Shown here in pieces: positions 52,901 to 55,900 of a stretch of DNA of 64,000 bases. The position numbers were made by a program. How positions within the stretch are numbered: the stretch's first letter is position 1; each line of letters opens with the position of its first letter. The stretch is from Escherichia coli (GTDB taxonomy: Bacteria > Pseudomonadota > Gammaproteobacteria > Enterobacterales > Enterobacteriaceae): assembly GCF_003991155.1 (NCBI RefSeq), contig NZ_CP031293.1, one strand, 5' to 3'.

Positions 52901-55900
52901 CTGGCGAAATCTGACGAAGTGCTGAGCGACCGCGTGAATGCCTCTACTCTGAAAGAGCCGGAAGAAATTAAACTGGCGATGCAGGTTGTGGTGCTACGTG
53001 ACAAGCTAGAGCCGTACTTTGCTGAAGGTCGTTACCAGGATGCGCTGGTCGAACTGGCTGAGCTGCGTGAACCGGTTGATGCCTTCTTCGATAAAGTGAT
53101 GGTCATGGTTGATGACAAAGAATTGCGAATCAACCGTCTTACCATGCTGGAGAAACTGCGCGAATTATTCCTGCGAGTTGCGGATATTTCGCTGTTACAG
53201 TAATAACGCCGTTATTAAAAAGCCTGCCATCTGGCAGGCTTTTTTATCGCTAAATAATAGAGCAACCTTTAATAATCTTCTGCTGAATAAAGATTGTCTC
53301 ATATATTAATTTTATGAGATTTTTTTAGGATTATATCAAGGAGAAGAAACGAACTTATTAAGCTAGAATAGCTGCGGGTGCTTGAGACTGTTTGTCTCAG
53401 GTATTCACCGAAAGGCAGACAGAGAAAAGCCCCACCTGACTATAAATCAAAGTGTGTACTGACCCCAGAAAGTTGGACAGTTAAACACGAGGCATATAGG
53501 TCTGATTCCGATATTCAATTGGAGTCAGACCTTTTAATTTCAGGCTAATTCTTCTGCTGTTGTAGTATTCAATATATTCCGTAACAGCATCCTTCAGCTC
53601 GCTTATATTACTGAACTCATCAAGATAAAAACACTCCGACTTTAAGGTTCCAAAGAAACACTCCACCACAGCATTATCCAGACAATTGCCTTTTCTGGAC
53701 ATGCTTTGTTTAATACCATGTTCTTTAAGGATATTTTGATATCTTCTCATACGATACTGCCATCCCTGGTCAGAGTGCAGAACAGGATGCTCGTGAGGAT
53801 TAAGCTTTTTGAATGCCTGATCGAGCATATTCTCGACCATGTTCATCACTGGTCTTTCCGAAAGGCTGTAAGAAATAACTTCGTTGTTGAAGAGATCTAT
53901 TACTGGAGACAAATACAGCTTGCGCCCATTGACTGCAAATTCAGTAACATCGGTAACCCACTTCTCGTTTGGCCGCGTAGCCTTGAAATCTCTTTGGAGA
54001 ACATTGGGGGCGGTTTGCCCTACCTCTCCTCTGTAAGAGCGGTATCGCTTGACCTTAATCGCTGCCTTCAGTGAGAGGATTCCCATCAGGCGCTGAACAG
54101 CTTTATGGTTAATCTGTTTCCCTTCTCGATGAAGAGACAGCGTGACCCTACGGTATCCGTATCGGCCTCTATTCTCATGATAAATCTCACCAATACGCTT
54201 TTTAACGTCCGCATACTTGTCAGGCTTGCTGAGAGCCTTTAGATGGTAATAAAACGTACTGCGCGGTATCTCCGCAGCCCTGAGAAGCTCATCAAGAGGA
54301 TAAAACTGCCTTAGCTCGTTGAGTACTTTCACTTTTTCGTGGGATGAGCTAAGGCTTTCAGCTTTTTTAGATACACAAGCCGCGTTTCAAGAAATCGAAC
54401 TTGCCTTTCAAGATCCTCAATGCGTCGGTCTTTTGACAGCTCCAATGCTGATGCCGCTTTTTCTGGATCAACTGATATTGCAATGTTTCTTTTGGTGCCA
54501 ATCTTGAGCGCGCGTAAACCAGCTTCTCCGCGCTCTTCATAAACCTTCAGCCACCTGGCTACAGAACCACTACCAGCAAGCATAAAGTGAGCAGCAGCCT
54601 GATTAAGAGACATGTGCTGCTCGATCACAGCTTTCACGACCTTAATACGCAACTCAGGATCAGCACTAACACCTTTAGGTTTGGGAATTAAACCTTTTTC
54701 TCCATGTTTTTCATAGAGGGCAACCCATGTCCTGACCTGGGTTCGGGGGACACCAAAACGTGCCGAGATGATCCTGTAACCATCATCAGTAGTGAAGTAG
54801 TGATTCACGACTTCAAGGCGCTTTTCAAAAGGGTATTTTGGCTTTGACATATCAGGGGCTATTCCATTTCATCGTCCAACAAAATGGGTGCAGTACATAC
54901 TCGTTGGAAATCAACACAGGAGGCTGGGAATGCCGCAGAAATATAGATTACTTTCTTTAATAGTGATTTGTTTCACGCTTTTATTTTTCACCTGGATGAT
55001 AAGAGATTCACTGTGTGAATTGCATATTAAACAGGGGAGTTATGAGCTGGCGGCGTTTTTAGCCTGCAAATTGAAAGAGTAAGCGTCTTCGGCGGGAAGT
55101 TATTCCCGCCTTTCTTACGGCGTTGCGCATTCTCATTGCACCCAAATTTATTCTTCACAAAAATAATAATAGATTTTATTACGCGAACGATTATTTATTT
55201 CCTGAATAAACAAATAAAAAAATCCCCGCCATTTGGCAGGGATCTTAGATTCTGTGCTTTTAAGCAGAGATTACAGGCTGGTTACGTTACCAGCTGCCGG
55301 GCCTTTAGCGCCGCTTTCGATGGTGAAGGACACTTTCTGACCTTCGTCCAGAGATTTGTAACCATCGTTCTGGATAGCAGAGAAGTGTACGAACACGTCT
55401 TTAGAGCCATCGTCAGGAGTGATGAAGCCGAAGCCTTTGTCAGCGTTGAACCATTTTACGATACCAGTCATTTTACCGGACATAGTGTATTACCTTTAAT
55501 AATTAAGTGTGCCTTTCGGCGATATGGCGTGCTTTACAGATTTTGAAGCGTTAAAGGAATGTGCACTACGAGGGGTATCAACGATAACTCTTGAAGGGAC
55601 TTGCCTTACTACACTGCTTTAATGGTCTGTACGTCAAACCGTTGATGTGCATTAAGCCACGCATTGGCGGGTGATGCAACAATTATTTTTCATATTTATG
55701 ATTAATCGGTTGGAAAACGGTCCTGTCATCAGGACCGTAAACAGCAATAAAGTGGATAAAAGTCTATTCCATCAACTGCTTACTTAATGCCGGGTTGGCT
55801 TGAATCAAACGCATCAATTTTAGTTCGGCACTTGAAGGCTTCACGCGTCTGGATTCCCATTCCTTTACCATGGCGACTGATACGCCCAAAACCCGGGCGA

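What the first reader, a model, noticed from the sequence alone, without database searches (positions are those of the whole stretch)
54329..54370. IS150 transposase frameshift site retained
An A AAA AAG heptamer lies on the minus strand near the end of orfA, just upstream of the orfA/orfB overlap, which is the expected slippery sequence for the -1 frameshift that fuses the two ORFs. Both ORFs are full length, so the element looks transposition-competent.
Basis: partly seen in the sequence, partly recalled or inferred. Interest (0 to 1): 0.25.

Follow-up and report, generated by a model that had tools for sequence, protein, structure and literature searches.

The report
Intact IS150 frameshift site, already known

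Summary
An A_AAA_AAG heptamer lies at 54368..54362 on the minus strand. It is in phase with orfA (CUA AAA AAG) and sits inside the 55-nt stretch where both orfA and the -1 frame (orfB) are open.

Six nucleotides downstream is a 10-bp hairpin, GCCUUAGCUC/GAGCUAAGGC, at 54355..54308. Its 28-nt loop holds the orfA stop codon and the orfB GUG. I found no evidence of a pseudoknot.

The element is a complete 1443-bp IS150 (53455..54897). It occupies the same hokA/sokA site as the single IS150 of E. coli K-12 MG1655. Against that reference it has 18 substitutions and no indels: 13 synonymous, 3 amino-acid changes and 2 non-coding. None falls in the heptamer, spacer or hairpin. Both ends, both ORFs (173 and 283 aa) and the D-59-D-35-E catalytic triad are intact.

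Twelve relatives, from Enterobacteria to Firmicutes, Rhizobium and Arthrobacter, keep the same layout: an A-run, a 4-6 nt spacer and a stem of about 10 bp. Five of the 10 stem pairs show compensatory changes.

The closest genome carries an identical second copy in the reported trg-mokB hotspot, so this variant has moved recently.

Verdict: already known, low interest. The only oddity is that this copy has no target duplication; it replaces 38 bp of the sokA region.

The parts
53455..54897 (-). Complete IS150 element, 1443 bp, with ends 5'-TGTACTG...CAGTACA-3'
   Evidence: Searches show each end once in the window; same length as K-12 IS150 (NC_000913 3720633..3722075), 18 substitutions, no indels; annotated as IS150 in thousands of E. 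coli records.
54867..54897 (-). Left terminal inverted repeat (IRL), starting TGTACTGCACCCATTTTGTTGGACG
   Evidence: inverted repeat I1. The 35-nt arms are 71% complementary and extend 4 nt past each IS end, so about 31 nt lie inside the element. Identical to K-12 over the first 44 nt.
53455..53485 (-). Right terminal inverted repeat (IRR), ending ...GGGGTCAGTACA
   Evidence: I1. There is one difference from K-12 at 53468, at a position already mismatched between IRL and IRR.
54329..54850 (-). orfA (insA/insJ), 173 aa, helix-turn-helix DNA-binding protein
   Evidence: HTH_28 at 4e-23; one amino-acid difference from K-12 (M159V).
53481..54332 (-). orfB (insB/insK), 283 aa as called from GUG, in the -1 frame; DDE integrase-type catalytic domain
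   Evidence: rve 3e-29, rve_2, HTH_21. D128 (53951..53949), D188 (53771..53769) and E224 (53663..53661), with 59 and 35 residues between them and K at +7. Two amino-acid differences from K-12 (S48G, T85I).
54332..54386 (-). Frameshift window: the stretch in which both the orfA frame and the -1 frame are open
   Evidence: the -1 frame opens after TGA at 54389..54387; orfA stop at 54331..54329.
54362..54368 (-). Slippery heptamer A_AAA_AAG, in orfA phase
   Evidence: Identical in K-12. Kept as xUA AAA AAG, or as a 7-A run, in 12 relatives.
54356..54361 (-). 6-nt spacer CUGAAA between heptamer and hairpin
   Evidence: The spacer is 4-6 nt in all relatives.
54308..54355 (-). Stimulatory hairpin. 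5' arm GCCUUAGCUC at 54355..54346, 28-nt loop at 54345..54318 (holding the orfA UGA and orfB GUG), 3' arm GAGCUAAGGC at 54317..54308
   Evidence: MFE -20.4 kcal/mol, z -3.3; hairpin alone -17.0 kcal/mol; 2 of 2000 shuffles do as well; 93.6% of cells paired, 5 of 10 pairs with compensatory changes.
53481..54850 (-). Predicted transframe transposase InsAB, 456 aa. orfA codons 1-163 run through AAG, then a -1 shift re-reads G54362 (...YLKK|AESLSSSHEKVKVLNE...)
   Evidence: construction; this exact 456-aa sequence is on record as 'IS3-like element IS150 family transposase' and as 'OrfAB transposase'. NF033516 IS3 family transposase, 412 bits against a cutoff of 160. RefSeq joined CDS with the same boundaries.

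Best explanation
This is the programmed -1 ribosomal frameshift cassette of insertion sequence IS150 (IS3 family, IS150 subgroup), and it is intact in a full-length copy.

Ribosomes translating orfA reach CUA AAA AAG. The two Lys-tRNAs on AAA and AAG slip back one base onto A AAA AA. The slip is helped by a 10-bp hairpin that starts 6 nt downstream, at the entrance of the mRNA channel. Ribosomes that slip read on in the orfB frame and make the 456-aa InsAB transposase, which joins the HTH DNA-binding part to the DDE catalytic part. Ribosomes that do not slip stop 10 codons later and make the 173-aa InsA.

Shown here: the sequence anatomy, identity of the cassette to the reference, covariation of the stem across relatives, intact ends and catalytic residues, and recent mobility of this sequence variant. 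Inferred or taken from the literature: that slippage actually occurs, its efficiency, and that InsAB is the transposase.
For: - The heptamer is in phase and inside the two-frame overlap.
- The hairpin lies 6 nt downstream at -17 kcal/mol. Only 2 of 2000 shuffles give as good a helix.
- Window positions 54375..54247 are identical to K-12 IS150.
- Of the 18 differences from K-12, 13 are synonymous, 3 change an amino acid and 2 are non-coding. This pattern fits purifying selection.
- Fourteen aligned sequences from 12 distinct relatives, down to about 47% OrfB identity and spanning four phyla, keep the A-run, spacer and stem. 93.6% of cells are paired, 5 of 10 pairs have changes on both sides, and the slid controls give 18-54% paired.
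- All relatives use xUA AAA AAR for Leu-Lys-Lys although many synonymous spellings exist.
- The fusion protein built from the predicted slip is on record as IS150 OrfAB and passes NCBIfam NF033516.
- RefSeq marks the identical locus as 'programmed frameshift'.
- Sharma et al. 2014 (PMC4066793) list the IS150 cluster as a proven case of -1 frameshifting stimulated by a stem-loop, citing Vogele et al. 1991.
- Mobility: an identical copy sits in sokB (the trg-mokB hotspot) of the closest genome, and near-identical copies sit on plasmids. The hotspot and IS150 activity are reported in PMC5289635.
Against: - Nothing in the sequence speaks against the mechanism.
- No frameshifting or transposition was measured for this copy.
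- It carries three amino-acid differences from the studied K-12 element and one base change 8 nt upstream of the heptamer (54376, G versus A). The effect of these is untested. That upstream position also varies among relatives (A, G or C), which argues it is not part of the signal.
- This copy has no target-site duplication and replaces 38 bp of the target, so its arrival was not a simple insertion. The IS ends themselves are intact.
- The primary experimental paper (Vogele 1991, PMC328623) is not held in the library. Its details are quoted from memory or second hand.
Confidence: 0.95

Rival explanations
1. The fusion protein arises by transcriptional slippage rather than ribosomal slippage. 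RNA polymerase adds an extra A in the A6 run, which gives an mRNA with orfA and orfB in one frame and the same protein sequence.
For: The protein product would be identical (...LKKAESL...), so protein records cannot tell the two mechanisms apart. Some IS3-family elements do use transcriptional slippage on A-runs (PMC6211511, listed). Two relatives have 7-A runs.
Against: - From established knowledge, six A's is shorter than the runs at which polymerase slippage becomes efficient in E. coli.
- A hairpin at a fixed 4-6 nt spacing, maintained by compensatory changes across phyla, is what a ribosomal mechanism needs and a transcriptional one does not.
- The strict codon phase xUA AAA AAG is conserved.
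- IS150 is cited as a proven ribosomal case stimulated by a stem-loop.
Confidence: 0.02
2. The signal is retained, but this particular copy is an immobile resident. It is an old insertion fixed at hokA/sokA, kept intact by recency or gene conversion rather than by activity.
For: - The same junctions occur in K-12 and in about 1644 of 5426 complete genomes, so the insertion is old.
- There is no target duplication, and 38 bp of target are missing.
- A mutation-accumulation study cited in PMC5289635 rarely saw IS150 move in various strains.
- No activity was measured here.
Against: - The ends, ORFs, DDE triad and frameshift cassette are all intact.
- 13 of the 16 coding differences from K-12 are synonymous, which indicates continued selection on the proteins.
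- In the closest genome a second copy identical to the hokA copy sits in the known trg-mokB hotspot, flanked by an AAC repeat. The same variant is on plasmids of E. coli and Salmonella.
Confidence: 0.1
3. The heptamer is only a by-product of coding Leu-Lys-Lys in the conserved C-terminal leucine-zipper-like part of OrfA and has no recoding role.
For: Y-L-K-K-L is conserved at the protein level in all relatives, and AAAAAAG is common in the window (29 copies).
Against: - Leu-Lys-Lys can be spelled 24 ways, yet every relative uses xUA AAA AAR, including the rare E. coli codon CUA.
- The heptamer always lies in the two-frame overlap, with the hairpin at fixed spacing.
- Without a shift there is no way to join the DNA-binding and catalytic domains, which NCBIfam and RefSeq model as one protein.
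Confidence: 0.01

Closest known systems
IS150 of E. coli K-12 (insJ/insK, NC_000913 3720633..3722075; Schwartz et al. 1988; Vogele et al. 1991, NAR 19:4377)
   Same: - Same length (1443 bp), same ends and same genomic site (hokA/sokA between glyS and cspA).
- Same ORF lengths.
- Identical heptamer, spacer, hairpin and loop.

   Different: - 18 substitutions (98.75% identity).
- Three amino-acid changes: InsA M159V, InsB S48G and T85I.
- One base in IRR and one base 8 nt upstream of the heptamer.
- The first flanking base on the IRR side is C here and A in K-12.

ISKpn8 (Klebsiella, Raoultella and Enterobacter plasmids)
   Same: 94% nucleotide identity over 1443 bp. Identical heptamer, spacer and stem.
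   Different: One loop base differs (CCCGCG versus CCCACG). It is named as a separate IS in RefSeq annotation.
Other IS150-subgroup elements (ISBce15, ISBth167, ISEnfa3, unnamed Klebsiella, Enterobacter, Rhizobium and Arthrobacter elements)
   Same: Same cassette architecture: Y-L-K-K motif, an A6G or 7-A run, a 4-6 nt spacer, a 10-16 bp stem, and the orfA stop inside or near the loop.
   Different: OrfB identity is only 47-72%. Loops are 25-44 nt, and stem sequences differ by compensatory pairs.
IS911 / IS3 / dnaX -1 frameshift signals
   Same: All use A_AAA_AAG (or A_AAA_AAR) plus a downstream RNA structure. This rests on established knowledge and on PMC4066793.
   Different: From memory of the literature, IS911 and dnaX add an upstream Shine-Dalgarno-like stimulator and IS3 uses a pseudoknot. 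Here no GGAG, GAGG or AGGA lies in the 30 nt upstream (read), and no pseudoknot partner is supported.

Membership tests
IS150 (isoform of the ISfinder reference element) | More than 95% nucleotide identity and/or more than 98% amino-acid identity to the reference over the full length (ISfinder isoform convention, quoted from memory) | tested here: met
   1425 of 1443 nt are identical to the K-12 copy, with no indels. The 456-aa fusion has 3 differences.
IS150 (isoform of the ISfinder reference element) | 1443 bp with imperfect terminal inverted repeats ending 5'-TG...CA-3' | tested here: met
   53455..54897, TGTACTG...CAGTACA. The inverted-repeat arms cover about 31 nt within the element.
IS3 family, IS150 subgroup | Two consecutive ORFs, with orfB in the -1 frame relative to orfA and partly overlapping it | tested here: met
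   orfA is 54850..54329 and orfB is 54332..53481. Both frames are open over 54386..54332.
IS3 family, IS150 subgroup | AnG frameshift window in the overlap | tested here: met
   A_AAA_AAG at 54368..54362, in orfA phase. The criterion is as stated in PMC5771124.
IS3 family, IS150 subgroup | HTH motif in OrfA; D(57-60)D(35)E triad with K/R downstream of E in OrfB | tested here: met
   HTH_28 at 4e-23 and rve at 3e-29. D128, D188 and E224 with 59 and 35 residues between them, and K at +7. Criterion from PMC5771124.
IS3 family, IS150 subgroup | Fusion protein recognised as an IS3-family transposase | tested here: met
   NF033516 at 412 bits against a cutoff of 160, covering residues 66-448 across the junction.
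IS150 insertion event (a footprint of the insertion, not a defining feature of the element) | 3-bp (sometimes 4-bp) direct target duplication flanking the element | tested here: not met
   The flanks are GTA and CAC, and the IS replaces 38 bp present in empty sites. This concerns the history of this insertion, which is shared with K-12, not the identity of the element. The second copy in strain 2016C-3878 is flanked by an AAC repeat with 2 extra nt.
Programmed -1 ribosomal frameshift signal (bacterial X_XXY_YYZ plus downstream structure) | Slippery heptamer in the zero-frame phase that allows both tRNAs to re-pair in -1 | tested here: met
   CUA AAA AAG shifts to A AAA AA.
Programmed -1 ribosomal frameshift signal (bacterial X_XXY_YYZ plus downstream structure) | Stable hairpin starting 4-10 nt after the motif, opening with a G-C pair plus at least 3 further pairs, unfolding energy at least 7.6 kcal/mol, 17-140 nt long (rules of Sharma et al. 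2014) | tested here: met
   6-nt spacer, G-C first pair, 10 consecutive pairs, 48 nt, -17.0 kcal/mol. The rules are quoted. Covariation is shown.
Programmed -1 ribosomal frameshift signal (bacterial X_XXY_YYZ plus downstream structure) | Measured production of a transframe protein that depends on the heptamer and the structure | not testable with these tools
   Reported for the reference IS150 by Vogele et al. 1991, cited as proven in PMC4066793. The cassette here is identical to that reference.

The most novel reading that the evidence does not exclude
The most novel reading that the evidence leaves open concerns the setting, not the frameshift site. IS150 may have a specific affinity for the sok antitoxin/promoter region of chromosomal hok/sok type I toxin-antitoxin loci. 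It sits in sokA here, with a 38-bp replacement and no duplication. It sits in sokB, the reported trg-mokB hotspot, in the closest genome, in the opposite orientation. If so, the element would systematically disarm or rewire these loci. A smaller possibility is that the allele-specific G at 54376 (InsA M159V, 8 nt upstream of the heptamer) tunes frameshift efficiency.
Probability: 0.1. Interest if true: 0.35.

Novelty: already known. Interest (0 to 1): 0.07.

Why it matters
It matters little beyond annotation. The window carries an apparently active IS150, so the correct gene model is one joined, frameshifted transposase gene (InsAB) plus InsA, not two independent genes. An intact IS150 is a real source of insertion mutations and rearrangements in the host strain; IS150 is a major mutator in E. 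coli B evolution experiments. The covariation table assembled here independently confirms, by comparison alone, the stem-loop that was defined experimentally in 1991.

Tried and rejected
- **Rfam:** a scan of 53000..56200 at E<=1 found no family for the frameshift hairpin. It found only cspA, sok and chance hits.
- **Pseudoknot:** the best pairing between the 28-nt loop and the next 120 nt scores 12, against a shuffle mean of 14.6, and 954 of 1000 shuffles do at least as well. Rejected.
- **Lower helix:** the MFE fold pairs AAGCUG of the heptamer and spacer with CAGUUU. I disregarded this because those bases lie inside the ribosome when it sits on the heptamer.
- **Upstream stimulator:** no GGAG, GAGG or AGGA in the 30 nt before the heptamer (read).
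- **Second slippery site:** G_AAA_AAG at 54340..54334, just before the orfA stop, is not an X_XXY_YYZ heptamer and is absent from most relatives. Not pursued.
- **Target duplication:** none found; a 38-bp replacement was found instead.
- **Other IS150 ends in the window:** none.
- **Primary paper:** Vogele et al. 1991 (PMC328623) is not held. Searches for IS150+InsAB and hokA+IS150 gave nothing useful.
- **Alignment caveat:** the MAFFT alignment A2 misplaces the 3' arm of ISEnfa3 and shifts the Arthrobacter stem by one column, so the 93.6% paired is an underestimate. The per-sequence helix search finds 10-bp stems in both.
- **Not run:** I did not use the large genome or metagenome scans, structure prediction or protein-database searches, because the plasmid and E. 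coli collections answered the question.
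Full report
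**1. What is there**

Reading the minus strand of 53200..55200 and listing ORFs gives two consecutive ORFs.
- orfA is 54850..54329 and encodes 173 aa.
- orfB is 54332..53481, encodes 283 aa as called from a GUG, and lies in the -1 frame relative to orfA.
- The called ORFs overlap by GTGA.

Translating the -1 frame further upstream shows it is already open from 54386, after a TGA at 54389..54387. Both frames are therefore open over 54386..54332, a stretch of 55 nt.

The only AAAAAAG in that stretch is at 54368..54362. Its phase in orfA is CUA AAA AAG (Leu-Lys-Lys), which is the X_XXY_YYZ arrangement needed for tandem -1 slippage.

The heptamer by itself is not significant: there are 29 copies in the window against 17 expected. 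At that background rate an in-phase copy within a 55-nt overlap is expected about 0.002 times (my arithmetic).

**2. The element**

Inverted-repeat search and direct reading give ends 5'-TGTACTGCACCC...GGGGTCAGTACA-3' at 54897 and 53455, which is 1443 bp. Each end occurs once in the window.
- OrfA matches HTH_28 (4e-23).
- OrfB matches rve (3e-29), rve_2 and HTH_21.
- The catalytic residues are D128, D188 and E224 of OrfB, with 59 and 35 residues between them and a Lys at +7. This fits the D(57-60)D(35)E rule quoted for the IS150 subgroup in PMC5771124.

A megablast of the 1443 bp against 5426 complete E. coli genomes hits 2864 genomes, and the hits are annotated 'IS3-like element IS150 family transposase'.

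**3. Comparison with the reference**

In K-12 MG1655 the single IS150 (3720633..3722075; insJ of 173 aa, insK of 283 aa) lies between hokA/mokA and the sokA pseudogene, next to glyS and cspA. That is the same place and orientation as here, with identical flanks apart from one base.

Position by position, the window copy differs from K-12 at 18 sites with no indels (98.75% identity).
- 13 differences are synonymous.
- 3 change an amino acid: InsA M159V, InsB S48G and InsB T85I.
- 1 lies in the 5' untranslated part and 1 in IRR, at a position already mismatched between the two repeats.

The nearest difference to the frameshift site is 54376 (G here, A in K-12), 8 nt upstream of the heptamer. Positions 54375..54247 are identical, and these cover the heptamer, spacer, hairpin, orfA stop and orfB start. 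The 54376 position is A, G or C among close relatives, so it is unlikely to be part of the signal.

The closest genomes (for example strain 2016C-3878) match 4.5 kb around the element except for one base, 54144. That difference is a synonymous Val63 codon of OrfB.

**4. The downstream structure**

Folding 54375..54290 as RNA gives a hairpin at -20.4 kcal/mol (z = -3.3). Its core is a perfect 10-bp stem, GCCUUAGCUC (54355..54346) with GAGCUAAGGC (54317..54308). The stem starts 6 nt after the heptamer and closes a 28-nt loop that holds the orfA UGA and the orfB GUG. Alone, the hairpin scores -17.0 kcal/mol over 48 nt.

It meets the empirical rules of Sharma et al. 2014 for IS3-family stimulators: it starts 4-10 nt after the motif, its first pair is G-C, it is more stable than 7.6 kcal/mol, and it is 17-140 nt long. 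Only 2 of 2000 shuffles of the downstream 125 nt give an equally good helix at that spacing.

A pseudoknot is not supported. The best loop-to-downstream pairing is weaker than the shuffle mean. No Shine-Dalgarno-like sequence lies in the 30 nt upstream (read). Rfam has no family matching the hairpin.

**5. Evidence from relatives**

BLAST of the element and of OrfB against the plasmid collection gave:
- ISKpn8 (94% nucleotide identity);
- unnamed IS3-family elements of Klebsiella, Enterobacter and E. coli (57-72% OrfB identity);
- ISBce15, ISBth167 and ISEnfa3;
- an E. faecalis element, a Rhizobium element and an Arthrobacter element (down to about 47%).

I fetched these. All have Tyr-Leu-Lys-Lys spelled xUA AAA AAG, or a 7-A run, within the two-frame overlap. 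This is followed after 4-6 nt by a 10-16 bp stem with a 25-44 nt loop. In each, at most 7 of 2000 shuffles match the helix.

On a MAFFT alignment of 14 sequences, the 10 stem pairs are standard pairs in 93.6% of cells. Five pairs have changes on both sides, for example G-C to A-U and C-G to U-A. No shuffle reaches the covariation score, and sliding the 3' partner by 1-3 columns drops pairing to 18-54%. Two rows are slightly misaligned, so these figures are conservative.

ISLla3 (41% OrfB identity) uses a different motif (U_UUA_AAA_G region) and a shorter stem, and I left it out.

**6. The product**

Joining orfA through AAG to the -1 frame from G54362 gives a 456-aa protein with the junction ...YLKK|AESLSSSHEKVKVLNE.... 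This exact sequence is on record as 'IS3-like element IS150 family transposase' and 'OrfAB transposase protein'. It scores 412 bits on NCBIfam NF033516 across the junction.

**7. Mechanism, and what is shown versus inferred**

Shown here:
- the anatomy of the site;
- identity of the cassette with the reference;
- nucleotide-level constraint on the heptamer;
- compensatory evolution of the stem;
- intact ends and active-site residues.

Taken from the literature:
- IS150 is a proven case of -1 frameshifting stimulated by a stem-loop (PMC4066793, citing Vogele et al. 1991).
- IS3-family OrfAB is the transposase (PMC5771124).

From my memory of the Vogele et al. abstract (the paper is not held):
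- About one third of ribosomes shift.
- An 83-bp segment suffices.
- A stem mutation lowers shifting by about 80%.
- Synthesis of the InsB-sized protein also involves frameshifting rather than simple initiation at the GUG.

If that last point is right, the '283-aa orfB from GUG' is an annotation convention rather than a demonstrated product.

**8. Is the copy transposition-competent?**

Everything needed in cis and in trans is intact. In strain 2016C-3878 a second copy identical to its hokA copy lies inside sokB between trg and hokB. That site is reported as an IS150 hotspot in experimental evolution (PMC5289635). The same variant, one or two mismatches from the window copy, is on E. coli and Salmonella plasmids. 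So this allele has moved recently.

The window copy adds only a synonymous base to that allele. I rate competence as likely (about 0.8-0.85) but not demonstrated.

**9. An oddity of the insertion**

The flanks are GTA and CAC, so there is no duplication. Genomes without the IS carry 38 bp (AGGCCCCTCTATGCATAGACACCATAAGGTTAGCCTCT) exactly where the IS sits. The junctions are the same in K-12. About 1644 of 5426 genomes carry the IS-bearing arrangement and 2831 carry the empty one.

This was therefore a single old event that removed part of the sokA/hokA control region. The K-12 annotation of sokA and mokA as pseudogenes fits that. It does not bear on the frameshift site.

**10. Verdict**

Both the observation and the interpretation are correct. 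The feature is the textbook IS150 frameshift cassette in an intact isoform of IS150. It is already known and of low interest.

Noticed in passing
window 53452..53454 and 54898..54900 (flanks of the IS); L004:420-600: This IS150 has no target-site duplication (flanks GTA and CAC). Compared with empty hokA/sokA sites, it replaces 38 bp (AGGCCCC...TTAGCCTCT). The junctions are the same as in K-12, so this is one old event. About 1644 of 5426 complete E. coli genomes have the IS-bearing arrangement and 2831 have the empty one.
   Followed up: yes
L003:1501-2943 (E. coli 2016C-3878, between trg and hokB); L019:2620-2676: The closest genome has a second, identical IS150 inside sokB. It is in the opposite orientation relative to hok and is flanked by AACTG and AACCG, against an empty site TCTATCAACCGAGG. 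That is either a 3-bp AAC repeat plus 2 extra nt or an imperfect 5-bp repeat. trg-mokB is a published IS150 hotspot, so IS150 sits in sok genes at two hok loci.
   Followed up: partly
window 53376..53472 (+): An Rfam sok antitoxin match (68.8 bits, above the gathering score) abuts the IS and runs 18 nt into its right end. This is the truncated sokA remnant, annotated as a pseudogene in K-12.
   Followed up: partly
window 55216..55643 (-): A full-length cspA thermoregulator (Rfam RF01766, 500.9 bits) covers the cspA mRNA. Many RefSeq records label this gene cspE although its product line reads CspA.
   Followed up: no
window 54930..55082 (+): The hokA toxin ORF is intact next to IRL and reads away from the IS. 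K-12 also annotates a 23-codon gene, ysaE, on the opposite strand overlapping the 3' end of hokA.
   Followed up: no
window 53211..53277: The terminator hairpin downstream of glyS (AAAAAGCCTGCCATCTGGCAGGCTTTTTT) gives sub-threshold STnc370 and leader-peptide Rfam hits on both strands. These are most likely chance matches to a bidirectional terminator.
   Followed up: no
window 54144: This is the only base in 52000..56500 that differs from the closest complete genomes (minus strand C versus A). It is a synonymous Val63 codon in OrfB, private to this window's strain, and usable as a marker of this copy.
   Followed up: yes
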